From a virus (taxonomy: Duplodnaviria > Caudoviricetes), in IMG/VR virus record IMGVR_UViG_3300025280_000039, positions 1-55,777 of that record: a stretch of DNA of 55,777 nt; one strand, given 5' to 3'. The translations under genes and the position numbers were made by a program. How positions within the stretch are numbered: position 1 is the first letter of the stretch; every line of letters starts with the position of its first letter. Under the pieces are notes generated by a model. The model saw only the letters and a program-made list of their open reading frames with translations. It did no database searches and was not told the DNA's origin. Positions 1,799 through 55,777 of the stretch are shown one piece after another.

Positions 1799-2250
1799 AA
1801 ACAATCACGATCAACAAGACTGAGCTGAACATTTCGGCAGCCGAGCAACGCGCGTTGGGCATCTTGGCGGACCACGATTTTACTGTGCCACTGAGCGCAT
1901 TTGAGGAGGGGCGGTCATGGCGGCACAAGAAATTTATTTTGCCGCGAGGATCTAGAGCGAAGAAACTCGGCATTGAGGTTATTGATCTGGATATTTTGTG
2001 TAATCTTTTTGGCGGTATTTCGCACCAGAGAAACATGAGAAAGGACGTTATTGAGAGAGGAACGGCAGCGATTATTCGATTTTGGGCTGCCGGCGCCGGA
2101 ACGTGGATGGGAACACCTCCATGCTCTCAGCAAGCAGCAAGCAGGCTTAAACGCTTTTTTCGTGAACATCCGCGTCACAAGAAATGTGTGCTTGGTGACC
2201 CCCGAAAAATAAATCTCATTTTGGCAAAGTGCGGGGGAGCGTTGTCATGA
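1795..2250 (+). CDS. hypothetical phage protein
   Basis: ATGA overlap; GGAGGAG SD; MKTITINK start. Confidence 0.6.
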   Translation: MKTITINKTELNISAAEQRALGILADHDFTVPLSAFEEGRSWRHKKFILPRGSRAKKLGIEVIDLDILCNLFGGISHQRNMRKDVIERGTAAIIRFWAAGAGTWMGTPPCSQQAASRLKRFFREHPRHKKCVLGDPRKINLILAKCGGALS

Positions 2251-2447
2251 GCCCTGGACCGTGCGAGAGGTGCCACCAACCGATTTTGGATGAGGATGAT
2301 TACCATTCGGATGATTCGGGCGAACATCACCAAGCCTGTTTTGACGAGTGGTTCAAGGAGGAGGGGGCCTATTGGCGTCCGATTTACGATCGGGAAAAAC
2401 GTGCTGGACTGATACCGAAACGAGGAGATGATAGTGACCGTATTTGA
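2247..2447 (+). CDS. small hypothetical protein (CxxC...HxxC, possible Zn-binding)
   Basis: ATGA overlap; CERC...HQAC. Confidence 0.5.
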   Translation: MSPGPCERCHQPILDEDDYHSDDSGEHHQACFDEWFKEEGAYWRPIYDREKRAGLIPKRGDDSDRI

Positions 2448-3300
2448 TGAGAGTAAAATTGAGCAGAATGTTCGTGACAGGTTTGCAGCGGAAGAAGACG
2501 CAATCCGGATACCAGTACGAAAACTGGACCGGGACATACTCAAGGCCGCTTCGGAGTTGACATCGACGGAGGCGAGATTTCTGGTCGATGCTTATTACTC
2601 GATGCAAGCTGGGCGCATCCGCGCCAACAACCAGATTCGTGCCCTCACGGAAAGCGGGGAACCGCATGAGAGCATCGGTTGGCTTTCAACCGAGAGCCGT
2701 GTGCTGGAGGAGAGTGTCAAACGCGCCTTGGACGTCTACTCGGATAACCACCCTGTCGGAACCAGAATGCGGACCGTCGTGGGGGTCGGGCCTGTTATTG
2801 CAGCAGGCTTCCTGGCCCACATCGATATAAACCGAGCGCCAACAGCGGGTGCAATCTGGCGCTATGCAGGACTCGACCCAACCAGCGAATGGCGCAAGGG
2901 TGAGAAGCGACCCTTCAACGCGGCGCTCAAAACCTTGTGCTGGAAACTCGGCGAGTCCTTTGTGAAGGTGTCAAACCACCCCGACTCTCTTTACGGACAA
3001 ATCTATAAGGAACGCAAGGACATCGAGCTCAGCAAGAACGAGGCCGGCGACTTTTCCGACCAGGCTGATGCTAAATTGGAAAGGTACAAAATCGGGAAGA
3101 CTACCGACGCCTATAAAGCGTATTCCATTGGCAAACTGCCACCGGCCCACATTCATGCGCGCGCCAAGCGGTATGCTGTGAAAATGTTCATCTCACACCT
3201 CCATGAAATCTGGTACGAGATCGAACTTGGGAAACCGGCACCCGTTCCCTACGTCATGGCGCACGGCGGCCATGTCCATAAGATCGAGCCGAACTGGTAG
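2428..3300 (+). CDS. tasA: TIGR-associated Nop-domain protein, nuclease-less (TasA-like; IS110/Nop superfamily)
   Basis: Coiled coil (LVDAYYSMQAGRIRANNQ), then VVGVGPVIAAGFLAHID...AGAIWRYAGLDP...FNAALKTLCWKLGESF...YKERK...HIHARAKRYAVKMFISHL, the IS110 C-terminal/Nop fold; no N-terminal DEDD RuvC; no SG serine loop after GLDP; GGAG SD; repeat-spacer array starts 7 nt after the stop. Confidence 0.85.
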   Translation: MIVTVFDESKIEQNVRDRFAAEEDAIRIPVRKLDRDILKAASELTSTEARFLVDAYYSMQAGRIRANNQIRALTESGEPHESIGWLSTESRVLEESVKRALDVYSDNHPVGTRMRTVVGVGPVIAAGFLAHIDINRAPTAGAIWRYAGLDPTSEWRKGEKRPFNAALKTLCWKLGESFVKVSNHPDSLYGQIYKERKDIELSKNEAGDFSDQADAKLERYKIGKTTDAYKAYSIGKLPPAHIHARAKRYAVKMFISHLHEIWYEIELGKPAPVPYVMAHGGHVHKIEPNW

Positions 3301-3306
3301 CATCAT

Positions 3307-4120
3307 CCACGAACCAAGATGGGAGAGAGGTCCAGGCAAGCAGAGCGAACCAACGCGTGAGAGAGAATCATGGGTGTTGACAGAATCAATTGGAGAAAAT
3401 GATCCAACCGGAGACGAGGGAACCAAGTGAGAAGAGAGATCCACACTTGGCAAGCAGGGCGAGAGGTCCATTGAAGGAGAGCGAACCAATGGGTGAGAGA
3501 GAATCAGGATCCAGGGAACGAATCAGGTAAACAGAATGATCCAGGGAACGCGAGCAGTTTTACATGCGGAACGAGAGGTCCATCCGAGGCGAGGGAACCA
3601 TCTGCGAAGAGAGAATCAAGAATGTTGAACGAATCAACAACTCCGAATGAATCAAGCTTTTGTGAACGAATCAAAGGTTCGGAATGATCCAGTTCCATCT
3701 GAGCGAATTTTGCCAATCAAGAAGAGAGAATCAAGGTAGATGACTCAGAAGCAGTCAGACCGACGTTTTAAATCCACTCTTGGAGACCAGAACCACCAAT
3801 GATGAGAGATTCAAATCCATTAGAGGAGAGAGATCCAAATCCATATCCACGGAGAGATCCATCCGGGGCGAGCGAACCACAAACCAAGAGAGATTCAAAT
3901 CCACTCGACAAGAGAGAACCACCTTCTCTGAGAGATCCATTTACCGGAGAGCGAGCCAGTGCCAGAGAGAGAATCGAAGAACAGGAACGAATCAGGTACC
4001 ACGAATGATCCATGAAAAAAGAGGGAACCATCCGCGAAGAGAGATCCAACGGTCTACAGGGAACCAACGATGACGAGAGATCCACCCAGTCAGAGGGAAC
4101 CAATTGAGAAGAGAGAACCA
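3307..4120 (+). ncRNA. TIGR-like tandem interspaced guide RNA array (~43 repeats of ~10 nt, spacers 8-9 nt)
   Basis: Repeats such as GAGAGGTCCA (3325), GAGCGAACCA (3343), GAGAGAATCA (3361), GAGGGAACCA (3416), GAACGAATCA (3516), GAATGATCCA (3534) ... GAGAGAACCA (4111) recur every 18-19 nt with variable spacers; directly downstream of Nop-like gene. Confidence 0.85.
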
Positions 4121-4134
4121 TTTAGGAGTGTGAA

Positions 4135-4530
4135 ATGATAACTGAGCGAAGTTTCGATCGCAGCATTAAGAGGATTATTTCCGGCGTGACATACAACACC
4201 GAGACAGCGACGGAGGTCGCGGGGGTGGTTGGTGAGGCACTCTTTAAAACTCGGTACGGTTCTTATTTCATCGCTTACGAAAACTCGGAACGTGAATGTG
4301 ACAGGGGGCTGTCCCCGATATCTAGGGAAGAGGCTAGAACGTGGCTAAAAACCCACTATCGGCGGGAGTTGCCGCCATGGACGTCCAACGCAGAGCGTCG
4401 GATTACGCTGCGCATGCCGAGCACGCTAGGAATCCAAATTGACGCTCTGGCGAAGAGCAATGATCAATCGACAAATGCTTGGATCATCCGGTGCCTCGAG
4501 CGCTGTGTCCGAGCTCAAGGAACTAACTGA
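4135..4530 (+). CDS. protein with C-terminal ribbon-helix-helix (Arc/HicB-like) DNA-binding domain
   Basis: C-terminal RITLRMPSTLGIQIDALAKSNDQSTNAWIIRCL; AGGAG SD just after last array repeat. Confidence 0.7.
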   Translation: MITERSFDRSIKRIISGVTYNTETATEVAGVVGEALFKTRYGSYFIAYENSERECDRGLSPISREEARTWLKTHYRRELPPWTSNAERRITLRMPSTLGIQIDALAKSNDQSTNAWIIRCLERCVRAQGTN

Positions 4531-4621
4531 TGGGATTACTAGGAAAAAGCAGCAGAGGTCGTACCTACTGCAATGTCATATGTTATGTGCAGTTTTCATC
4601 CACTTTACATTTCAGGGGATA

Positions 4622-5462: not shown

Positions 5463-5922
5463 GCTGCTTGCAGCATTGTTAATGCTTCCGCTTTGTGTGG
5501 CGGCGGTGGACGACTTTCCGCCGGTGACAAGTGACGAGCAGTACTGTATGGCCGAAGCCATGTATTTTGAGGCTCGAGGCGACGGTTGGCGGGGGATGGT
5601 AGCTGTAGGAGCGGTGGTGATGAACCGTGTGGCTGACCGCCGTTATCCGGACACGGTGTGTGAGGTAGTGCACCAGGGAGCGGAGCGCAATGACCGGCTC
5701 TGCCAGTTCAGCTACTTTTGTGATGGGCTTCCGGAAGCGTTTGGTGACAGTGAGCTCCGGGACTTGGCATATCGGATGGCTGATGCGGTCTTGAGCAGTG
5801 GGCGGGTGTCGGTGGTCGGCGTAGCCAACGCAACACATTACCACGCAATGCGCGTAGCACCGTGGTGGGCCGACACTCTCGAGCTCCAGGGATGCGTGGG
5901 CGACCACGTCTTCTACCAATGA
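5452..5922 (+). CDS. SleB-like cell wall hydrolase (Hydrolase_2) with N-terminal signal peptide
   Basis: CMAEAMYFEARGD...AVGAVVMNRV...YPDTVCEVVHQ...CQFSYFCDG...ATHYHA...PWW...GDHVFY; GTG start with GGAGG SD; hydrophobic N-terminus. Confidence 0.9.
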   Translation: MKNELLAALLMLPLCVAAVDDFPPVTSDEQYCMAEAMYFEARGDGWRGMVAVGAVVMNRVADRRYPDTVCEVVHQGAERNDRLCQFSYFCDGLPEAFGDSELRDLAYRMADAVLSSGRVSVVGVANATHYHAMRVAPWWADTLELQGCVGDHVFYQ

Positions 5923-6440
5923 AAAACATGGACTTTGACCGAGATGAGTGGCGCACTCCAGCGTGGCTGTTTCGGGTTGCCTCTCGAAACTTCGGCCCTT
6001 TTTCGCTGGATGTCGCGGCAACTGACGAGAATACGCTATGTCCATCCTTTTTTACCAAAGACACAGATGCACTGTCGCAAAAGTGGCCTTCCCAAGATGA
6101 AGAGGACGATTTTGGGATTGACGTGGTCTGGTGCAACCCGCCTTATTCCAACATTACACCTTGGCTCGAGCACGCTATTGAGTGTCGATCTGAGGTGGTG
6201 TTTCTCTTGCCGACGCCGAACGGTGAGAAGCGTGACAGACTGATTTTCGGATACGCCACGGACATTTTGTTTTTCGACAAGAGAGTGGCTTTCGTGCAGC
6301 CGAACGGGACGCCCAGAATAGGCAATCCCCGAGGTTCGTGTTTAGTGAGGTTTGCGCCTCTGGTCCCTGGCCGTTACGGTTGGCGTCCCAGGCACAAAAA
6401 AGACAGGGTCAGAGCAGATTTATATGAGGGTGCCAGCTAG
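5919..6440 (+). CDS. dam: phage DNA N6-adenine methyltransferase (Dam-like)
   Basis: DEWRTP...FSLDVAA...DALSQKW...VWCNPPYS motif; ATGA overlap. Confidence 0.88.
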   Translation: MKNMDFDRDEWRTPAWLFRVASRNFGPFSLDVAATDENTLCPSFFTKDTDALSQKWPSQDEEDDFGIDVVWCNPPYSNITPWLEHAIECRSEVVFLLPTPNGEKRDRLIFGYATDILFFDKRVAFVQPNGTPRIGNPRGSCLVRFAPLVPGRYGWRPRHKKDRVRADLYEGAS

Positions 6441-21054: not shown

Positions 21055-23913
21055 CTAACCTTTAGTAAGCACGTAAACGCCTTTATCATTAAGCTTGTAT
21101 GTTCCCGTAGCATCAAGTATTTCCTGTATTCTGGTCAAGTGCTCTACCGGTACGCTAGTACCAAATTGTCCTTCTTGGGCAGCAAAGGCAAGAATATTTT
21201 CCCGAGTAGGATTGACAACAACTTCTTGCACAGTCGGTCTAGGCAAAGGAAGTCCTGCTTCGTCTGTTTTTATCGGACCCACACTATAAGCTCCCCACTG
21301 ATCTTCAAACTGATTCATTTTGGTAACTGAATTGGTGTAGGATTTCCTAATTCCTAGCTCTATTGCCATCAATCTTTCTTTTAAAACCTCGGGGTCAGCG
21401 AACAGGTAGTCTTCATAAAGACCCACTATCTGTTGTGCCAAGTCTCTGTCTATGTTCGATATGTTTTTAGATCCTTCTCCCAATAACTCCCTAATCAGGA
21501 GGTTAGCAAGACGCTGCTGTTGCATCTCGTACATCGCAATATTCTCTCCGGTTCGCACATTTTCCTCAAACCAGGCCCATAGACTTCTCTGCTCTTTATA
21601 ATCATTAAGACGCTCGTCTGCGTTTCTCCAGTGTTGCTCCTCATGCTCCCCGGCTTTTATAGCTGCTTCCGCGAGTTGTTCGTCAGTGGCGCCTGCCATA
21701 CGGCTACCCAAACTGTTCCCTGCGTCTTCATCTTTTCTTCTCAGCTCCAAGTTGAGAAAGTTCGCACCTTGATTTAAAAGTTTCGCAACGTGCCCCTTAA
21801 AACCCGTGATAGTATAGTCCTCCGCTATATCCAAAGAACTACTTATAAGGCCGAACATATTCAACTGTTTCTGGACGTTCTGAGCGGCTTCATTGTAGTC
21901 TTTCGCCGCTGTCGCATACTGTCTCACTTTCTCTGCTGTATTACCCCCCGCTTGCTTAATAGCTGCTTCTATTACTTCCGTAAAAGCAGTCGCGTTTTTT
22001 ACGCGGGTGTCTATCGCTGCTTGTATTGCTAACTCTCCTCCAAACAATTCCGGATTGCCTTGAACCGTAGAATAAGGAACGTAAGCGATCTTGCCTTTTT
22101 TGTATAGTACGTTTCCGTCCTCGTCCGTGATGTCCCTCACAGGCATTACTTCTATGGGTTTTTTGCCCTCTAATTCCAACGCTCTTGTGTCTTCTCTTCT
22201 CTTGTTGTTCGCGGCAAGCGCGTACTCTGCGGCAGAAAGTTTAATCTGGCGTTCATACTCACGCTTTTCTTTAGCGCCCTCTGTATGATCATCTATTGTG
22301 GCAAGAAACCCGTCCGCTATGTTTTTAATTGCGAAAGGGCTTGTGCCGGCGGCAATCGCCAATCCGGTTTTTACCCAAGCCATTGACTTTTCAAAATCAC
22401 TTGCGCCCTCGTACTCAGGAGCTGTCTCTATAAACTCTTCCTTAAAGGTCTTTAACCAATCTTTCAGATCCTCCGGGTCGTCGTCCTTCGCCGTTGTTAA
22501 TATTCCCTCCGTAACTACTTTCTCACTACTAATAAGTTTTGGTCTAACCCCTTGCTGGCCGCTGTCTTCGTCTTCGGCTTCGTTTTTCAACTTCTTTAAG
22601 TTAGTTTCCGCCTGTTCGGTTAAGTTACTTTGGTCGTCGCTTAAACCGGCTATTATTTTCTTTTTTACCCTAGAGGCTATATGGGATGCTCGTTCGTCTT
22701 CAAAAGCAGAAGAGGCTACCGCAGCTTCGGCTTCATCCTCTTCGGTAAATCGGTCCTCAAGGTCCATATAAGCATTAGGATCTATTACAACAGGTCCTGG
22801 AGCTAACTGAGGAGGTAACATAGCATCTTCGATTCGTTCAGATGTTGTCTTTCCGGTAAATCGGTCCGCGGGATCCCTACCTACAGCATGTCTACCGGCA
22901 CCTATGAACGGTTGACTGTCCGAGCCCCAAGAAATTTGTTCGTCACCTGTTACAAAATCCTGCACGTTCTCGGCAACTGTCGGATCGGGATAATACCGTC
23001 TCACGGGTTCCTTAATACCTGTAGGATCTTGCGCGAAAGGTGGTAAGCCGGTTTGACGTATTAAATTGGCAGCGGCTTCATCACCTAGCTTCATAGCTTC
23101 GCCCCTTATCTGCGTGGCCATGTCCGTTGTAGTTGGTCTGCCCACAGCTTGAAGAGCCGCATCATATGGATGCTGATGCTGACCCAGTCCCTCCGACCAT
23201 CCAGTGGCCTGTCTCAACAACTCCCCGGGAACAATCGTCTCGCCAGAATGGAGCGTTGCCGCTCTGCCTGGGTCCTCTCCGGCATACGCGATCGGATCGG
23301 CAACATAATCATAACGTGCTTGTAGGGCTTCTTGTGACGGGGGCTGAGTTGCGCCTATTTCCAAAGCTACTTCGCCACCGGGAAAATCAAGAGCATTTGC
23401 CTGCGCCGAACCGGATTCGCCTAATGTAAATGTCTCCTCACCAGGCCCTGGTAGCACGTCGCCTGACCAAAGAGCATCTTGTGCATCTAGGCCACGACGC
23501 CAAGCTTCTTTTGCCGTTCCGGCTGCTACGTCCGTTACTTCTTGAACAAGACTGGCGGCATTATCTAGACTTTCTCCCGTCACACTGGCCACATGCGTAA
23601 CTACCTGCTCAAATGTTTTGGCACCAGCGGCAAACGCCTGCTGTATTAACTGAGACAACTGAGCTCGACGTTGTTTTGCGTTTTCCGCACTTCTTTGGCT
23701 GAACTCAGCGATTGTGCCACCTAATGCCTGCGGAGGAGTGCCCATAGCAAGACCCCCGGTTTGAAAATTAACCGGTCCACCCTCGTTCATGGTCACTGAA
23801 TCTATGAGAGGCGAAGAGGAAGCCAGGATGCCTGCCGCTTGACTGGGAGGGACGAGCCCCCCACCACGGAACATCATACGGTTAGCCAGGATTGATTTAA
23901 TAAGCTTTGCCAT
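21055..23913 (-). CDS. internal virion / ejection protein
   Basis: 952 aa; GLAIAAGTSP..IKNIADG motif; synteny. Confidence 0.6.
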   Translation of the reverse strand: MAKLIKSILANRMMFRGGGLVPPSQAAGILASSSPLIDSVTMNEGGPVNFQTGGLAMGTPPQALGGTIAEFSQRSAENAKQRRAQLSQLIQQAFAAGAKTFEQVVTHVASVTGESLDNAASLVQEVTDVAAGTAKEAWRRGLDAQDALWSGDVLPGPGEETFTLGESGSAQANALDFPGGEVALEIGATQPPSQEALQARYDYVADPIAYAGEDPGRAATLHSGETIVPGELLRQATGWSEGLGQHQHPYDAALQAVGRPTTTDMATQIRGEAMKLGDEAAANLIRQTGLPPFAQDPTGIKEPVRRYYPDPTVAENVQDFVTGDEQISWGSDSQPFIGAGRHAVGRDPADRFTGKTTSERIEDAMLPPQLAPGPVVIDPNAYMDLEDRFTEEDEAEAAVASSAFEDERASHIASRVKKKIIAGLSDDQSNLTEQAETNLKKLKNEAEDEDSGQQGVRPKLISSEKVVTEGILTTAKDDDPEDLKDWLKTFKEEFIETAPEYEGASDFEKSMAWVKTGLAIAAGTSPFAIKNIADGFLATIDDHTEGAKEKREYERQIKLSAAEYALAANNKRREDTRALELEGKKPIEVMPVRDITDEDGNVLYKKGKIAYVPYSTVQGNPELFGGELAIQAAIDTRVKNATAFTEVIEAAIKQAGGNTAEKVRQYATAAKDYNEAAQNVQKQLNMFGLISSSLDIAEDYTITGFKGHVAKLLNQGANFLNLELRRKDEDAGNSLGSRMAGATDEQLAEAAIKAGEHEEQHWRNADERLNDYKEQRSLWAWFEENVRTGENIAMYEMQQQRLANLLIRELLGEGSKNISNIDRDLAQQIVGLYEDYLFADPEVLKERLMAIELGIRKSYTNSVTKMNQFEDQWGAYSVGPIKTDEAGLPLPRPTVQEVVVNPTRENILAFAAQEGQFGTSVPVEHLTRIQEILDATGTYKLNDKGVYVLTKG

Positions 23914-29988: not shown

Positions 29989-30268
29989 TTTTCGGATACT
30001 TATCTTTAATGGCTTTGATGCTCGCTTTCCATCCATCAAAATCATGATATATCTGGTCGAGCTGTTCCTTCAGTTCAGGATATTCATCTTTTCTTTTGCT
30101 GAAATACTGGAAAGATTCCACCTTCGCCAAAATATCCGCCTTTGAAATCACGTCAGCTTCGTTGTCCCAGGTGATTCTGTCGGGGTCGTTGTCAACGACA
30201 GAGCATCCCGCGTCTGGGTTAATCGCCTTGATGGCTTCAATTACCGAACCTGTCTCTAAATAACTCAT
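29981..30268 (-). CDS. tail fibre assembly chaperone-like protein
   Basis: KRKDEYPELKEQLDQIYHD..GWKASIKAIKDKYPK; directly after tail fibre. Confidence 0.65.
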   Translation of the reverse strand: MSYLETGSVIEAIKAINPDAGCSVVDNDPDRITWDNEADVISKADILAKVESFQYFSKRKDEYPELKEQLDQIYHDFDGWKASIKAIKDKYPKSV

Positions 30269-31869
30269 GCTCCGATCTCCACTAAAACGATTGTTGATTT
30301 ACCCGCCGAACCACTGGAATTTTTTTGAATGTTAATGGTCCCTACCTGATCATATCTCGACATCTGTGTTTTATATGTGGTCGCACTTGTCGTAGATGGA
30401 GAATCCAAAAACGCCGCAAAATGTAACGTGCGCTGATCGTCGGCATCACCAATTTGTATGGTGTCATAAATATTTGTTGTGGCTCTCAGAAGGACCAGTC
30501 TGCCTTCTGACCGGCCAAAATGAGACACACTTTGAGAGACTAAGCATAGGACTTTACTGGATGTGGCAGAGGGGGTAATCGCCGCACTAAGCCCAGTGTC
30601 AACAAGAGTCGTACTGTCTGTGTCGACTTGAGTAGTCGTTGTTCCGGTAACAACCTGTAGTACCTTACCCCCCGCAACACTTGCCCAGGTAGTGCCATCA
30701 GAAGTCAAAACATTGCCGGATGTCGATGGGGCTATCATCTGGGGGGCAGAGGTCCCATTCCCAAGCAACACGGAATTAGCCGTTAGCGTAGATGCTCCAG
30801 TTCCCCCATTGGCTACGCTCAGATCAGTTCCCAAAGTCAACGCGCCAACTATCTCTACGCCCGTTCCACCCGTTGCGATTTTAATAACCGCTGCGTCAGC
30901 GTCATTTTTGATGGTTACGTCGTTGGTCGAGCCCTGCCCGGTTAAAATTAGCCCTTCTGCGGCGGTATATCCCATTGCTGCATTATCTGCCGCAGCCGTA
31001 TCTCCATCAGCATTTACTGTGGAGGCAGTGACATCCCCTACGATATCTACGTTTGTTGCACCAGTCGCAATCGTAATTACATCGGCATCGGCATCGTTTT
31101 TAATCGTTACATCGTTAGTGGACCCTTGGCCGGTGAGGATTAATCCCTCGGCAGAGGTGTAACCAATAGCAGCAGTGTCGCTAGCGGAGGTATCCCCATC
31201 CGGTTTGAATGTCGCGGCGGTAGCATCTCCAACGATATCTACATTTGTCGCGCCCGTTGGAATAACCAGGACAGCCGCATCCGCATCGTTCTTTATTGTG
31301 ATGTCGTTCGTCGATCCCTGCCCGGTCAGAATAAGACCTTCCGCGGCGGTATATCCCATCGTCGCATCATCACCAGCAGCGGTGTCAGCGTTAGCACTTA
31401 CCTTTCCAAAAACAGGATTCAATAAAGCGTTGACAACAGCGGCTCCGCTACCGGCCCCATCACAATACACAATGGCGCTCGCCCCATTAGTGATGGTTAT
31501 ATTTGCCCCACTGCCTTGACTGATGACTACGCTGTAGGGACCGCTGGACCCGGAATCAGTAGTTGAGTTGGTAAAGATAAAGAAAGCCGCAGACGTGTTG
31601 GGGGCCACAGTGACCGTGTTATTTGCACCAAGAGCACCGGTGAATTTAATAACCCGGTACATACCATCTTGAAGGTTTTCTGTGCCTTGGCCCGGGGAGG
31701 CTTCCCTGACTGTTAAGGTATGTGTAGTACCGGAGAGAGCGACTGACCCGTAAGAAGCTATTCGATCAAGAATGTCAAAATTGAAGTTGGTGGTTACCCC
31801 CCAAGTCCCTGACTGTTCTCCAGTAGCTACTTCTTCGAAGCCGAAATTAGTTGTAAATGTGGAAGCCAT
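30265..31869 (-). CDS. tail fibre protein 2
   Basis: N-terminus paralogous to fibre 1; three ~64-aa internal repeats (GYTAAEGLILTGQGSTND); C-terminal GKVLQVV...AAITPSATSSKVL domain. Confidence 0.8.
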   Translation of the reverse strand: MASTFTTNFGFEEVATGEQSGTWGVTTNFNFDILDRIASYGSVALSGTTHTLTVREASPGQGTENLQDGMYRVIKFTGALGANNTVTVAPNTSAAFFIFTNSTTDSGSSGPYSVVISQGSGANITITNGASAIVYCDGAGSGAAVVNALLNPVFGKVSANADTAAGDDATMGYTAAEGLILTGQGSTNDITIKNDADAAVLVIPTGATNVDIVGDATAATFKPDGDTSASDTAAIGYTSAEGLILTGQGSTNDVTIKNDADADVITIATGATNVDIVGDVTASTVNADGDTAAADNAAMGYTAAEGLILTGQGSTNDVTIKNDADAAVIKIATGGTGVEIVGALTLGTDLSVANGGTGASTLTANSVLLGNGTSAPQMIAPSTSGNVLTSDGTTWASVAGGKVLQVVTGTTTTQVDTDSTTLVDTGLSAAITPSATSSKVLCLVSQSVSHFGRSEGRLVLLRATTNIYDTIQIGDADDQRTLHFAAFLDSPSTTSATTYKTQMSRYDQVGTINIQKNSSGSAGKSTIVLVEIGA

Positions 31870-32338: not shown

Positions 32339-34300
32339 TTATGCTGAATTCTTGAATCCGTACATATGGATAAAACAATCTCTGAAATCAACTGGATCGG
32401 TGGAGTTATCTACTTCTAATTTAAATTTAACGGCATCTACTACAAAAGTGAGACCGGCTCCTCTACTATTACCTACACCTATGTATCTAAAAGCTTGCCC
32501 CCCACTATTAATAAACCCATCAAAAACTACTTGGGCTTGCGCTAAATATGATGTAGTACCGGGGCACTCAGGATGTTCCATTGTAATTTCCATAGATAGA
32601 TAACGACCAGTGGTTGAATCCAATTGTTGAGCACCGGCCATAGTCAGGCGTATGGCCGAGTCACCATTTGAATATTCAGCATTCTTCCAATTGTCATTTG
32701 CACCACTAACGTCACCCAGCGTTCCAAGCTGCCATATATAATTAGACGAAACATAACTTGATCCATTGTCTTCACTGAACTGCATAAGTAATTTTGAGGC
32801 GGAGTCTGGGGCTATATACAGATGCCATTTATATGCAAAATAAACGGAGTCATCTATCAAAGAAGTAAATGTAACTTCTGAACCAGTTGTAACTACTTGA
32901 CTACCTAACCATACACAGGAACCACCACCACCCGCCGCAGCGCTTGCCCAAGTACTGCCATCAGAAGTCAAAACATTTCCCGATGTCGACGGTGCGATCA
33001 TCTGGAGTGCTGAGGTGCCATTTCCGAGTAATACAGAATTCGCCGTTAAGGTACTTGCCCCCGTCCCTCCATCAGCTACAGGAACATCCGTCCCTCCCGC
33101 TCGATAGATGGCATTACCCTCGACAGTCAAATCTCCCGCACCCGACCTCGCTAGAGTTGTGTCAGTAGCAGCACCAATATTTACTGCTGTAAATTGCGGA
33201 CTATCTCCTGTTCCAACCCCAATCGAGGTCCGTAAGGTAGCTCCTGACTCGGCCACTGGATCAGTGGAACCATCCCCAACGATCATTTGTCCATCACTCA
33301 ATACTGACATCGCCGTAATGGCACCAGTACCTGAGCCCAGCAGGACACCCCCGTCGGTTAATGAGCTTGCCCCCGTTCCCCCATCAGCTACAGGGACGTC
33401 GGTGCCACCGGCTCGATAAATTGCGTTACCTTCTACCGTTAGGTCACCAGCACCTGATCTAGCCAGGGTTGTATCAGTGGCAGCTCCAATGTTCACCGCC
33501 GTGAATTGCGGACTATCTCCTGTTCCAACTCCAATTGAGGTCCGCAGGGTAGCTCCGCTTTCGGCAACGGGATCCGTGGAGCCATCTCCAACAATCATTT
33601 CGGAGTCGGCCAAAACGGCCAAGGCAGTCACCGCTCCGGTTCCCGAGCCCAGCAACACGCCACCATCGGTTAAGCTGGTTGCCCCCGTACCTCCGTTCGC
33701 TACGGGGAGGGTTCCGGTTACTCCTGCCGTCAAACTTACCTGTCCCCACGAGACATCAGTCCCATCCGTCAGCACTACATTGCTTGCCGAACCTACGGCC
33801 AAACGGGCCGTTAAATTGGAGGCATTTCGTACAACGATGTCCCCCCGTGTGGTCAACGGTTCCACAAGGGCTGGGGCAACTACCGCGCCGCTTCCTGCTC
33901 CATCACAATAAACCAGGGCACGAGTGCCACTGGCTAACGTGTAATTAGCTCCGCTGCCTTGGCTAAAAATTAAAGAGAAGCCGCCAGAAGTTCCATCGAT
34001 GAAAACAAAAAAGGCAGTCGTGGTATTAGGCGCTATCGTAATTGTGCAGTTCTGACTTAACGACCCGGTAAACTTAATGACTCTGAACATCCCATCCTGA
34101 AGATTTTCAGTGCCCGATCCGGGGGAAGCTTCTCGAACAGTGAGGGTGGCTGTCGAGGCATCGGACAAGGCAACCGCCTTGTAAGCCGTAATGCGATCGA
34201 GGATGTCAAAATTGAAGTTGGTAGTGGTTCCCCAATCTCCGCTTTGATCACCGGTTGCCATCTCCTCGATGCCAAAATTTGTCGTATACGATGAAGCCAT
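32339..34300 (-). CDS. tail fibre protein 1
   Basis: MASSYTTNFGIEEMATGDQSGDWG; VPVADGGTGA repeats; ~104-aa internal duplication. Confidence 0.8.
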   Translation of the reverse strand: MASSYTTNFGIEEMATGDQSGDWGTTTNFNFDILDRITAYKAVALSDASTATLTVREASPGSGTENLQDGMFRVIKFTGSLSQNCTITIAPNTTTAFFVFIDGTSGGFSLIFSQGSGANYTLASGTRALVYCDGAGSGAVVAPALVEPLTTRGDIVVRNASNLTARLAVGSASNVVLTDGTDVSWGQVSLTAGVTGTLPVANGGTGATSLTDGGVLLGSGTGAVTALAVLADSEMIVGDGSTDPVAESGATLRTSIGVGTGDSPQFTAVNIGAATDTTLARSGAGDLTVEGNAIYRAGGTDVPVADGGTGASSLTDGGVLLGSGTGAITAMSVLSDGQMIVGDGSTDPVAESGATLRTSIGVGTGDSPQFTAVNIGAATDTTLARSGAGDLTVEGNAIYRAGGTDVPVADGGTGASTLTANSVLLGNGTSALQMIAPSTSGNVLTSDGSTWASAAAGGGGSCVWLGSQVVTTGSEVTFTSLIDDSVYFAYKWHLYIAPDSASKLLMQFSEDNGSSYVSSNYIWQLGTLGDVSGANDNWKNAEYSNGDSAIRLTMAGAQQLDSTTGRYLSMEITMEHPECPGTTSYLAQAQVVFDGFINSGGQAFRYIGVGNSRGAGLTFVVDAVKFKLEVDNSTDPVDFRDCFIHMYGFKNSA

Positions 34301-50139: not shown

Positions 50140-50260
50140 TAGTGAGTACTTACTAACATCGATGCTCCCGACATAGATCTGGGTTAGTGAGTACTTACTA
50201 ACATCGATGCGCGCAAGGTCGACTCAAGCGGGGTTAGTGAGTACTTACTAACATCGATGC
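50140..50260. repeat. three 26-bp direct repeats with near-palindromic core
   Basis: TAGTGAGTACTTACTAACATCGATGC at 50140, 50185, 50235. Confidence 0.9.
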
Positions 50261-50312
50261 GCGCTCGAACCAATGGCGAAAGCATGTTGTTTCTACCCTA
50301 ACATGGACGCTG

Positions 50313-50751: not shown

Positions 50752-51687
50752 ATGAAGAAACGCAAAGATGTGCGCGCACTTGTTACGGCGGCACTTATCG
50801 AGCAACTAGCCGCCGGCACAAAACCTTGGTCAAAGTCGTGGAGTATCTCTGGCACTGGGTTACCCAAACGCCACACTGGCGACTTGTATCACGGGATCAA
50901 TCGGCTGCTACTTATGATGCTAGGTTACGATAACCCATATTTTATGACGTTCAATCAAGCTGCAATATTGTCTGGAATGACAAAAGATAAGGGTTGCAAT
51001 TGGATACGCGAAAACGGTAAAGGTGTTAGGTCAGGTGAGAAATCACCTGCTCACGTTGTCTACTCTGCACAGAAAACGGTCCGCGACTATGACAGCGATG
51101 CGCCAGACGCCAAGAAAGAAGTCTACTTATACTGTCAAAGTGCGGTTTTCAACGCTTCGCAGATCGACGGTTTGCCAGATCGATATTATCCAGCAACTAT
51201 CGAGATCGATGCTAACAAGACACTGGAACATCACACTGCAGCGGACGCACTAGTCAAAGCAATGGAAGATGAAGCTCCTATTGAATATCAAGGTGACAGT
51301 GCATTCTACGCACCAAGTCGAGACACAATTCGATGTCCAGTGCCACAAGCTTTCGAAAGCATGGACGCATTCTACGCAACCCTGTTACACGAGGGTGTGC
51401 ACCGTACTGGCCACAAGTCTCGGCTAGATCGGACACACGACTACTCTGAGAAAACTGGCAGAGCTCGAGAGGAGTTAGTGGCCGAAATTGGTGCAGCGAT
51501 GTTGTGCTGTGCAATTGGACTCAGCGATAAGCCTAGAGAAGACCATGCGAGTTATATCCATAGTTGGATCCAGTTATTGGAAAATGACAAGAATGCGATC
51601 TTCTCAGCCGCGAAACAAGCCGATAGCGCTATGGCCTACATGCTGGATCAAGCAAACCAGTTTCACGGACGTGTCATAGCGGCGTAA
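50752..51687 (+). CDS. ardC: ArdC-like anti-restriction protein (ssDNA-binding plus zincin-like domain)
   Basis: KPWSKSW...YHGINRLLL...FMTFNQA...GVRSGEK...VFNASQIDGL...AFYAPSRDTI...LLHEGVHRTGH..RLDR...REELVAEIGAA. Confidence 0.9.
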   Translation: MKKRKDVRALVTAALIEQLAAGTKPWSKSWSISGTGLPKRHTGDLYHGINRLLLMMLGYDNPYFMTFNQAAILSGMTKDKGCNWIRENGKGVRSGEKSPAHVVYSAQKTVRDYDSDAPDAKKEVYLYCQSAVFNASQIDGLPDRYYPATIEIDANKTLEHHTAADALVKAMEDEAPIEYQGDSAFYAPSRDTIRCPVPQAFESMDAFYATLLHEGVHRTGHKSRLDRTHDYSEKTGRAREELVAEIGAAMLCCAIGLSDKPREDHASYIHSWIQLLENDKNAIFSAAKQADSAMAYMLDQANQFHGRVIAA

Positions 51688-53046: not shown

Positions 53047-53347
53047 GTCTGGAGCCCAGCTGGGCTCCGGCTCGGCAACCAACGCCGGCGAGCTCGACTC
53101 GAGGTAGCTTAGCATTCACCAGGTCACGGCAGCCGCGGCGACCAATGCCGGCTTTGCCCCGACCCCGACCGTCCCGACCCCGACCGTCCCGACCCCGACC
53201 CCGATTTAAGGGTATGCTAGGGTATTGCCCCGACCGAGATCGTCGCTCACAAGGCAACTGGTGAGGTCGGATCTTGCCCCGACCCCGAAAAAAGACAAAA
53301 AAATGCCCCGACTAGCGGGGCTAAGGTAATAACGATCGATGACCGCT

Positions 53348-54066: not shown

Positions 54067-54214
54067 AAGCGCCGGCAATGTCTCCCCGACCCCGACCCTA
54101 GCTTGACTAGATATGGATCTCCCGACCCCGACCGACCCGACCCTAGCTTGACTATTGTATGGTTTACCATGTCGTGGTAAGATCGGATCTCGTCAACGAT
54201 CGGGGTCTAATATC

Positions 54215-55098: not shown

Positions 55099-55242
55099 GC
55101 CCCGACCCCGACCCGAAACGCCAGCGATGAATCCCCGACCCCGACCCGAAACGCCAGCAATGAATCCCCGACCCCGACCCGATTTGACGGGATATGTGAA
55201 ATCGTGATAAAGTGGGCGCTCGTCAACAAACCGGAGTTCGAA

Positions 55243-55506
55243 ATGAAAAACTACAAACAAAAGATTAAGGAATTGGGCTTTTCCGTTATGCGCGGTGGTT
55301 ATCACGGCACCACCGATGACCGCATTGACCGGTGGTACGTGGAGCACCCGGCCACAGACTGTGTAGACCATCGTGGATCTGGATTCAAAACATTGCGAGA
55401 CGCATATCACGCCACCGCTGAGGTAGTAATGATGTGGAGAGTCGATGAGGAGGAAATCATCAGGTCAGAAACTTGCTCGACGTCAGCAAGTTCTCGGAGA
55501 CCTTAA
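55243..55506 (+). CDS. hypothetical protein
   Basis: GGAG SD, MKNYKQKIK start. Confidence 0.55.
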   Translation: MKNYKQKIKELGFSVMRGGYHGTTDDRIDRWYVEHPATDCVDHRGSGFKTLRDAYHATAEVVMMWRVDEEEIIRSETCSTSASSRRP

Positions 55507-55777
55507 GATGTGAGACTATTCCAAGCACAACCCGGTTTTGCCCCCCTCCGGTTGTTGACGCTACTTAAAGGGGGCAATCGGCCACCGGGGTTTCTATCCC
55601 TTCCCCGGTGGCCCGGTCGGAGCTCTCAGCCCCTTGCTAGAGCTCCGACCACCTTTTCCTCACCCAGCTACGCTACCCCGCCGGCGCTACCTGGCCTCGA
55701 GACTCTGAGCCCGACCCCCGACCCCGACTCCCGACCCCGACCCGACTATTACGGTTCCCGAACCCCGACCCCGACTA

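What the first reader, a model, noticed from the sequence alone, without database searches (positions are those of the whole stretch)
2428..4120. Phage-encoded RNA-guided system: nuclease-less Nop/IS110-like protein plus tandem interspaced guide array (TIGR-Tas, TasA type)
Seen: a 290-aa protein with the IS110 C-terminal/Nop fold, followed 7 nt after its stop by ~43 short repeats (consensus GAGNGAWYCA, nearly all ending CCA or TCA) separated by variable 8-9-nt spacers. Repeat ends fall at 3316, 3334, 3352, 3370, 3388, 3406, 3425, 3443 ... 4066, 4084, 4102, 4120, an 18-nt period (36 nt per pair). Known: TIGR-Tas systems pair Nop-domain Tas proteins, related to IS110 and box C/D snoRNP proteins, with arrays processed into ~36-nt guides carrying two short spacers that read both DNA strands; TasA lacks a nuclease domain. 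Inference: this phage encodes roughly 20 dual-spacer guides and a programmable, non-cutting DNA binder, possibly used against competing phages/MGEs or host genes.
Basis: partly seen in the sequence, partly recalled or inferred. Interest (0 to 1): 0.96.

Follow-up and report, generated by a model that had tools for sequence, protein, structure and literature searches.

The report
Phage TIGR-TasA guide-RNA locus
A marine phage carries a nuclease-free RNA-guided DNA-binding protein (TasA) followed by its array of short two-part guide RNAs; the locus is real, but it belongs to the TIGR-Tas family published in 2025 and this very protein is already in that paper's catalogue.

Summary
ORF 2428-3300 (+) encodes a 290-aa protein. 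Its sequence and predicted fold match the solved TasR and TasH structures best, with IS110 recombinases second. It has no nuclease domain, so it is a TasA. From 3310 to 4120, on the same strand, lie 39 clear 10-nt repeats with mostly 8-nt spacers and an 18-nt period. 29 of the window's 31 exact motif matches fall there, against 4.6 expected.

Two repeat types alternate, as in the tested Salicola phage array. All 12 of 12 related loci carry such arrays.

I count about 13 usable guides (9 canonical), not 20. The array is also partly eroded by short deletions.

TasA keeps the Tyr/His pair (Y275/H282) that cuts guide precursors in SpTasH.

No target was found in the phage itself or in 740 kb of related phage DNA.

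The identical protein is a row of Table S1 in Faure et al. 2025. This scan has also met TIGR-TasA arrays on other DNA. Already known; low interest.

The parts
2428..3300 (+). tasA: 290-aa nuclease-less Tas protein (coiled-coil helices, then Nop domain). The start may instead be GTG 2434.
   Evidence: ORF. PF02371. PDB sequence hits 9mty_A 1.2e-14 and TasH 21kl_A 5.6e-12. Fold hits. Identical row in Table S1 of PMC12045711.
3250..3273 (+). Codons of Y275 (3250-3252) and H282 (3271-3273), the putative guide-processing dyad.
   Evidence: BLASTP aligns them with Y289 and H296 of SpTasH. Those two residues are named as catalytic for pre-tigRNA cutting in PMC13421893. H282 is conserved in at least 90% of the 36 aligned homologues.
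3310..3316 (+). 5'-truncated edge repeat (CGAACCA) that opens the array.
   Evidence: [quoted passage not shown] L004 and L005 open the same way.
3317..3443 (+). Regular block with three complete guide units; the block closes on the loop repeat of a fourth unit. Edge is GAG[CG]GAACCA or GACAGAATCA; loop is GAGAGRWYCA or AAATGATCCA.
3444..3460 (+). Broken joint: 17 nt where 26 are expected (spacer B, edge, spacer A). The edge is reduced to a remnant.
   Evidence: my reading.
3461..3700 (+). Second regular stretch, with guide units that use the repeat pair GAACGAATCA / GAATGAWYCA. A 13-nt edge variant sits at 3552-3564.
3701..3795 (+). Scrambled stretch: an edge with lost box C (GAGCGAATTT), one isolated loop repeat at 3724-3733, and degenerate remnants.
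3796..3939 (+). Irregular stretch with three 24-nt periods. At 3813, 3837 and 3897 a loop repeat is followed directly by AATCCA. I read this as a loop fused to a 5'-truncated edge, with spacer B lost.
Evidence: TRF period 24..
3940..4120 (+). Terminal regular block with four units (the first has a loop damaged to TCG at 3967-3976). The array ends on loop repeat 4111-4120 with no closing edge.
4135..4530 (+). Next gene (131 aa), with an RBS 7-11 nt after the last repeat and a weak ribbon-helix-helix (HicB-family) match at its C-terminus. Probably co-transcribed with tasA and the array.
   Evidence: Pfam PF05534 E 5e-4, just below cutoff. No + strand terminator-like site between 4120 and 4135.

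Best explanation
This is a dual-repeat TIGR-TasA system of a tailed marine phage.

Shown here:
- A Tas-fold protein without a nuclease domain.
- Directly downstream on the same strand, an array of alternating edge repeats (GAG[CG]GAACCA, GAACGAATCA) and loop repeats (GAGAGAWYCA, GAATGAWYCA), separated by 8-nt (sometimes 9-nt) spacers. Its architecture is the same as the experimentally studied SpTIGR array.

Inferred from studied homologues:
- tasA, the array and the downstream genes are transcribed together.
- A TasA dimer binds each edge-A-loop-B-edge unit through box C (YCA) and box D at the repeat ends.
- TasA cuts the precursor inside edge repeats with Y275/H282, giving roughly 36-nt guides.
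- Each guide reads a 16-17-bp DNA site, with spacer A pairing one strand and spacer B pairing the other.
- With no nuclease, binding blocks transcription or replication rather than cutting.

The targets are not in the phage itself, so they are most likely in the host or in competing mobile elements. About 13 units look usable. The rest are eroded by 9-12-nt deletions.
For: Protein:
- PDB sequence hits to TaTasR (1.2e-14) and SpTasH (5.6e-12).
- AF2 model pLDDT 89.4, pTM 0.81.
- The 10 best Foldseek PDB hits are all TasH or TasR chains.
- Only PF02371 is found, and residues 1-106 are helical.
- Y275 and H282 align with SpTasH Y289 and H296 (role from the passages of PMC13421893 seen, and section 10 of the 2026 preprint).

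Array:
- 29 of the window's 31 motif matches lie in 3343-4120 on one strand, against 4.63 expected.
- 27 of 38 intervals are 18 nt.
- The repeats resemble SpTIGR's AAGCGAGCCA / AAGACAACCA, which also has 8-nt spacers.

Conservation:
- Arrays stand next to 12 of 12 homologous loci. In L007, box C is changed to CCG in both repeat types.

Catalogue:
- The identical sequence is in Table S1 of Faure et al. 2025.

Function of TasA:
- Repression and EMSA binding were shown for another TasA (MbTasA) in preprint 10.64898/2026.09.09.750476, sections 12-13.

Phage context:
- Terminase, portal, head, polymerase and primase genes are present.
Against: - Nothing here shows transcription, processing or binding.
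- Box C is mixed within one array (26 CCA, 12 TCA).
- Several joints are broken, and the array ends without a closing edge or a terminator. Part of the array may therefore be non-functional.
- No target was found. 0 sites with up to 2 mismatches occur in the phage for 30 adjacent spacer pairs in either geometry, and the 3-mismatch counts equal the control.
- 0 perfect sites occur in 93 related loci (about 740 kb), with only 3 one-mismatch sites.
- The tested TasA proteins (FpTasA, MbTasA, PlTasA) are distant from this one. The closest solved relatives are nucleases at 20-27% identity.
Confidence: 0.88

Rival explanations
1. The locus is a decaying relic. TasA is intact, but the array has been eroded by deletions and repeat mutations and no longer supplies working guides, or supplies only a few.
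For: Broken joints occur at 3444-3460 and 3701-3795. Three 24-nt periods lack a spacer B. One loop has TCG and one edge has TTT in place of box C. There is no closing edge or terminator. Contigs of two public runs carry 12 more nt behind 3309, which complete a spacer and the GAG of the first edge.
Against: 9 units are fully canonical and 4 nearly so. The array is identical, without a single change, in an independent contig that is 99.79% identical over 6,297 nt. The protein is intact with its conserved residues.
Confidence: 0.08
2. The ORF is a fragment of an IS110-family transposase, as the PHROG and Pfam names suggest, and it lies next to an unrelated short tandem repeat.
For: The Pfam hit is PF02371 'Transposase IS116/IS110/IS902'. 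PHROG 4285 is labelled 'transposase'. IS621 and ISCro4 recombinases appear in the fold search at E 2e-3 to 1e-2.
Against: Tas structures score about five orders of magnitude better than IS110 recombinases. There is no DEDD/RuvC-like N-terminal domain. Arrays accompany 12 of 12 homologues. The locus sits inside a phage operon, not between insertion-sequence ends.
Confidence: 0.01
3. The periodic region encodes a repetitive protein. Open frames cross it on both strands, for example 3768-4121 (-), 117 aa.
For: Several ORFs of 46-117 aa overlap the array. An 18-nt period equals six codons.
Against: Frames are open on both strands and in several phases at once, and they break wherever a spacer has 9 nt. 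Only the 10-nt repeat is conserved, while the 8-nt spacers vary freely. Related arrays keep the repeats but share no spacers.
Confidence: 0.01

Closest known systems
SpTIGR-TasH of Salicola phage CGphi29 (NC_020844; PDB 9w03, 9w04, 21kl)
   Same: Both are phage-encoded, with the array directly downstream on the same strand. Both have 10-nt repeats, 8-nt spacers and an 18-nt period. The repeat pairs are alike: AAGCGAGCCA / AAGACAACCA there, GAGCGAACCA / GAGAGAWYCA here. The Nop domains align at 27% identity over 190 residues and include the Y/H processing dyad. It is the best fold match.
   Different: SpTasH carries an N-terminal HNH nuclease and cuts DNA. This protein has none. The SpTIGR array ends in a 3'-truncated edge and a terminator hairpin, whereas this one runs straight into the next gene.
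Dual-repeat TIGR-TasA systems (FpTasA of Flavonifractor plautii; Faure et al. 2025, PMC12045711)
   Same: A solo Nop-domain Tas protein with a dual-repeat array. FpTasA was shown to bind 36-nt RNAs (section read).
   Different: FpTIGR has 9-nt spacers and different repeats. It did not appear among my sequence hits, so it is a distant relative.
MbTasA, and the catalytically dead TasR repressors (Xu et al. 2026 preprint, 10.64898/2026.09.09.750476)
   Same: A nuclease-free Tas acting as an RNA-guided DNA binder and reversible transcriptional repressor (sections read). This is the function I infer here.
   Different: That system is bacterial (Minisyncoccota) and was tested in E. coli reporters. 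I did not compare sequences, because that protein was not available to me.
IS110-family bridge-RNA recombinases (IS621, PDB 8wt6/8wt9)
   Same: A shared RNA-binding Nop-like domain, which explains the PF02371 hit and the secondary fold hits.
   Different: Here there is no DEDD catalytic domain, no single bridge RNA and no transposon ends.

Membership tests
TIGR-Tas (Faure et al. 2025) | Tas protein with a Nop domain related to the solved TasR and TasH | tested here: met
   phmmer against PDB: 9mty_A 1.2e-14, 21kl_A 5.6e-12. Foldseek: the top 10 hits are all TasH or TasR, E 1.2e-8 to 5.8e-7, TM 0.52-0.72.
TIGR-Tas (Faure et al. 2025) | Adjacent array of two alternating 8-12-nt repeats separated by spacers of about 9 nt (36-nt unit) | tested here: met
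   39 repeats of 10 nt, 8-9-nt spacers, 27 of 38 intervals exactly 18 nt, and edge and loop types alternating outside the broken joints.
TIGR-Tas (Faure et al. 2025) | Box C (CCA-like) at the 3' end and box D at the 5' end of both repeat types, covarying between edge and loop | tested here: inconclusive
   38 of 39 repeats end in YCA and 34 of 39 begin with GA. Within this array, however, CCA and TCA are mixed in both types. Across loci, L007 has CCG in both types, which fits covariation. Which bases make up box D in this clade is my inference.
TIGR-Tas (Faure et al. 2025) | [quoted passage not shown] | tested here: inconclusive
   The start is met (CGAACCA at 3310-3316). The end is not: the last element is a loop repeat, no terminator-like site follows, and the next ORF starts at 4135. 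The paper says 'typically', so this is not a strict criterion.
TIGR-Tas (Faure et al. 2025) | Array transcribed and processed into Tas-bound tigRNAs of about 36 nt | not testable with these tools
   No RNA data could be used here. This needs small-RNA sequencing of a pulldown.
TIGR-Tas (Faure et al. 2025) | Listed in the published catalogue of Tas proteins | tested here: met
   The ProteinInfo sheet of Table S1 holds a row with the identical 290-aa sequence. Its coordinates (3423_4296) match the place of the gene in the contig of L001.
TasA subtype | No N-terminal HNH or RuvC domain | tested here: met
   Pfam finds only PF02371 at residues 113-153. The model shows helices at 8-41, 46-76 and 81-106 before the Nop domain. 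Only 108 residues precede the stretch that aligns with SpTasH, against 137 there.
Dual-repeat (self-processing) Tas | C-terminal Tyr/His dyad (SpTasH Y289/H296) | tested here: met
   Y275 and H282 align with it at the same 7-residue spacing. H282 is at least 90% conserved, and the Tyr position is aromatic in most of the 36 homologues. Catalysis itself was not tested.
IS110-family transposase | N-terminal DEDD (RuvC-like) catalytic domain together with the PF02371 domain | tested here: not met
   There is no PF01548-type hit and the N-terminus is purely helical.

The most novel reading that the evidence does not exclude
The array sits inside a polycistronic phage operon with no terminator of its own, between tasA and a ribbon-helix-helix gene that is followed by lysis and methylase genes. 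When TasA (Y275/H282) cuts the guides out, it would therefore also sever the mRNA. This could tie expression of the downstream genes to TasA level, making the array a built-in RNA-processing switch as well as a guide store. In addition, the near-identical half-guides recombined into different units, and the recurrent 12-nt 'loop fused to truncated edge' scars, suggest that this array grows and shrinks by unit duplication, half-unit recombination and point mutation rather than by acquiring foreign spacers.
Probability: 0.15. Interest if true: 0.45.

Novelty: already known. Interest (0 to 1): 0.2.

Why it matters
As a find it adds little. TIGR-Tas was described in 2025, TasA was shown to act as a repressor in 2026, and this exact protein is already in the published catalogue.

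Its practical value is as a clean specimen. It is a near-complete 55.8-kb phage genome with a compact TasA, an SpTIGR-like array of 8+8-nt guides, and natural variants of the array in public metagenomes. That makes it usable for the questions still open in the field: what phage TasA guides target in nature, and how arrays change without any adaptation genes.

Tried and rejected
**Self-targeting.** I joined all 30 adjacent spacer pairs in both possible geometries: A followed by the reverse complement of B, and the reverse complement of A followed by B. I scanned these against the window with the array masked. There were 0 sites with up to 2 mismatches. The 3-mismatch counts (11 and 17) matched random pairings (11.2 and 12.4).

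**Targets in relatives.** The same search over 93 fetched loci (about 740 kb of tas loci, terminase loci and two named phages) gave 0 perfect sites and 3 one-mismatch sites, which is about chance. One of the three lies in the SpTIGR array itself; I take it as coincidence.

**Shared guides.** No unit of this array recurs in the other loci. There were 24 hits, all with 2 mismatches and none with a repeat between the halves.

**Self-referential spacers** (a lead from earlier notes). 2 of 34 spacers share a 6-mer with a repeat in each orientation, against 1.7 and 0.6 expected, and none shares a 7-mer. Rejected.

**Collection-wide target search.** Not done. The collection scans take typed patterns, and a predicted target is a joined sequence that I was not to type.

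**RNA evidence.** No RNA holder is listed among the 20 runs.

**Other blanks.**
- Rfam gave no family hit in the window.
- Megablast of 2000-4600 against the phage collection gave no match.
- tblastn found only 3 distant phage records.
- This scan has no earlier notes on this genome.

**Edge and loop assignment.** I first took the GAGAGA-type repeat as the edge, because blocks seemed to begin and end with it. I dropped that for three reasons. SpTIGR, L004 and L005 open with a truncated GAGC..CCA-type repeat. TaTIGR's non-A-rich repeat TGCGAGCCA resembles it. And this array opens with CGAACCA.

**Contig joints.** These skips and back-steps between repeats came from short contigs at 85% likeness and may belong to related phages. 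I use only the 12-nt insertion, which was seen in two runs.

Full report
**The thing itself**

The window is the whole assembly held for this genome: one contig of 55,777 bp with 50% G+C. It is a tailed phage. PHROG matches cover:
- large and small terminase, portal, major head protein and a virion structural protein;
- DNA polymerase, primase and two helicases;
- an endolysin, a Dam-type methylase and an ArdC-like protein.

An independent viral contig (L001) is 99.79% identical over 6,297 nt without gaps. It also bridges the window's end to its start, so the genome is circular or circularly permuted and nearly complete.

**The protein**

ORF 2428-3300 (+) gives 290 aa. Library names point to transposases: Pfam PF02371 (E 1.5e-5, residues 113-153) and PHROG 4285 (3.5e-50). 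The solved relatives say otherwise.

- By sequence, the best PDB chains are TaTasR (9mty, 1.2e-14) and SpTasH (21kl and others, 5.6e-12).
- An AlphaFold2 model built on 36 homologues has mean pLDDT 89.4 and pTM 0.81.
- The ten best Foldseek matches in the PDB are all TasH or TasR chains (E 1.2e-8 to 5.8e-7).
- IS110-family recombinases come next, at E 2e-3 to 1e-2. Everything below that is noise.

Residues 1-106 form three long helices, which is the coiled-coil part of Tas proteins. No HNH or RuvC domain is present. It is therefore a TasA.

BLASTP against SpTasH, translated from the Salicola phage record, gives 27% identity over 190 residues. It places Y275 and H282 opposite Y289 and H296. Passages of PMC13421893 name those two residues as the catalytic pair for metal-independent pre-tigRNA cutting. 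[quoted passage not shown] H282 is conserved in at least 90% of the 36 aligned homologues.

**The array**

The array starts seven bases after the stop codon and runs to 4120, on the same strand. It holds 39 clear 10-nt repeats.

- 29 of the 31 exact GARNGAWYCA matches in the window lie in 3343-4120, all on the + strand. Shuffles give 4.63, and 0 of 100 reach 31.
- 26 repeats end in CCA, 12 in TCA and one in TCG.
- 27 of 38 intervals are exactly 18 nt.
- Spacers are 8 nt, sometimes 9.

Two repeat types alternate. One has C or G at position 4: GAGCGAACCA, GAGGGAACCA, GAACGAATCA. The other has A or T there: GAGAGAWYCA, GAATGAWYCA.

I take the first type as the edge repeat and the second as the loop repeat. 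The reasons:
- The array opens with a 5'-truncated CGAACCA (3310-3316), as the 2025 paper says arrays do.
- L004 and L005 open with a truncated GAGCCA-type repeat.
- SpTIGR opens with a remnant of AAGCGAGTCA and closes with a 3'-truncated GAGCGAGCC before its terminator.
- The TaTasR repeat that is not A-rich, and so is the edge by the paper's description, is TGCGAGCCA.

This assignment is an inference.

**State of the array**

Nine units are canonical (edge, 8-9 nt, loop, 8-9 nt, edge). Four more have one variant repeat:
- two flank a 13-nt edge variant at 3552-3564;
- one ends on an edge that has lost box C, at 3701-3710;
- one has a loop ending in TCG, at 3967-3976.

The rest is damaged:
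- a 17-nt joint at 3444-3460, where 26 nt are expected;
- a scrambled stretch at 3701-3795;
- three 24-nt periods where a loop repeat is followed at once by AATCCA (after 3813, 3837 and 3897). I read these as a loop fused to a truncated edge, with spacer B lost.

The very start shows the same kind of scar. Contigs of two public runs carry 12 more bases behind 3309, which supply a spacer and the first three bases of the edge.

The array ends on a loop repeat. No + strand terminator-like site follows, and the next ORF (4135-4530) has its ribosome-binding site 4-8 nt after the last repeat. That ORF has a weak ribbon-helix-helix match.

The array has no differences from the copy in L001.

**Relatives**

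The family is large.
- 3,692 proteins have E <= 0.001 among 5,159 candidates in the word-indexed search.
- 3,358 cluster representatives at 50% identity have E <= 0.001, and 1,366 have E <= 1e-30.

All 12 of the 12 viral-contig loci fetched with the protein carry 18/36-nt arrays beside the gene, upstream, downstream or both.
- L002 has a very regular array of about 56 repeats.
- L003-L005 use GAGCGAGCCA with a second repeat.
- L007 has CCG in place of CCA in both repeat types, the kind of covariation the paper describes.

None of these arrays shares a guide unit with this one.

**How it most likely works**

The steps below rest on studied homologues, not on anything shown here.
1. The array is transcribed with tasA.
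2. A TasA dimer binds the repeat ends.
3. The Y275/H282 loop cuts inside edge repeats, giving guides of about 36 nt.
4. The two spacers pair with opposite strands of one 16-17-bp site.
5. The bound complex blocks transcription or replication.

The sources are the 2025 paper (sections read) and the 2026 preprint, which showed repression and specific binding for another TasA.

From the reported 8-nt 3' overhangs, I derived that a target reads as spacer A followed by the reverse complement of spacer B. I tested both arrangements.

**Targets**

No target was found.
- The phage itself has no site with up to 2 mismatches for any of the 30 adjacent spacer pairs. Three-mismatch sites are as frequent as for random pairings. 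Regulation of the phage's own genes is therefore unlikely.
- 93 fetched loci of related phages (about 740 kb) hold no perfect site.
- I could not search the large collections. They take typed patterns only, and a predicted site is a joined sequence.

**Array evolution**

Some half-guides recur with one change in other units:
- 3583 and 3862;
- 3601 and 4031;
- 3426 and 4103.

That is 3 pairs at up to 1 mismatch against 0.41 expected, and 26 of 2,000 column shuffles reach it. In addition, 11 of 20 spacers before loop-type repeats end in AA or GA, against 3 of 14 before edge-type repeats. Both are modest signals. They fit growth by duplication and mutation. Spacers do not mirror the repeats beyond chance.

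**Novelty**

Table S1 of Faure et al. 2025 has a sheet headed as the proteins 'of all TIGR systems'. It contains a row with exactly this 290-aa sequence, at the coordinates that the gene has in the contig of L001.

For that paper I read sections 4-6, 8, 10, 24 and 49, single passages, and parts of that table. The large supplementary PDF could not be read. For the 2026 preprint I read sections 5, 10, 12 and 13. Its TIGRSafari resource is not yet public, so I cannot say whether this array has been annotated there.

Earlier notes of this scan describe several other TIGR-TasA arrays on other DNA.

The finding is correct and well read by the first stage, but it is a catalogued member of a known family.

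Noticed in passing
window 53157-53204, 54084-54143, 55100-55182, 55710-55743: Clusters of CCCCGA / CCCGAC-type short repeats occur in the last 2.7 kb of the contig, including a 33-nt unit repeated 2.5 times. Their function is unknown; they might mark an origin or be regulatory repeats.
   Followed up: no
window 1 and 55777; L001 1-573: L001 joins the window's end (55269-55775) to its start, with about 61 nt in between that the window lacks. The genome is therefore circular or circularly permuted and almost complete.
   Followed up: partly
window 33054-33688 and ORFs 30265-31869, 32339-34300 (-): There is a 312-nt tandem duplication (76% matches) inside a 653-aa ORF. Two neighbouring ORFs share the same N-terminal PHROG 31104. 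They look like paralogous tail-fibre-type genes.
   Followed up: no
window 50140-50268: A 50-nt tandem repeat, 2.7 copies, lies just upstream of the large terminase gene.
   Followed up: no
window 50752-51687 (+) and 5862-6440 (+): An ArdC-like anti-restriction protein (ArdcN plus zincin peptidase domains) and a Dam-family adenine methylase. These are further counter-defence genes in the same phage.
   Followed up: no
window 2428 vs 2434: The ATG at 2428 follows the GGAG by only 1 nt, while the GTG at 2434 has normal spacing. A 99%-identical database protein has 288 aa. The true start may be 2434.
   Followed up: partly
homologues P0130-P0270: Many relatives match in two stretches that break near residue 158-160 of this protein and carry 50-100 or more extra residues there. 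The 2026 preprint mentions guide units lying inside tas genes in disordered regions. I did not check whether these insertions are such units.
   Followed up: no
L007 54-372, 1856-2065, 2529-2755, 4062-4396: A 48%-identical TasA locus has at least four array stretches on both sides of the gene. Both of its repeat types end in CCG instead of CCA.
   Followed up: partly
L014 (Microcystis phage Mvi-JY20, record 21367-22092): A cultured cyanophage has a 'hypothetical protein' that matches this TasA at 28% identity over 79% of its length. It is probably an unannotated Tas gene. I did not examine its surroundings for an array.
   Followed up: no
window 3193-3489, 3504-3716, 3768-4121 (-): Open frames of 70-117 aa run across the array on the minus strand. 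They are by-products of the stop-poor periodic sequence, and gene callers may annotate them wrongly.
   Followed up: partly
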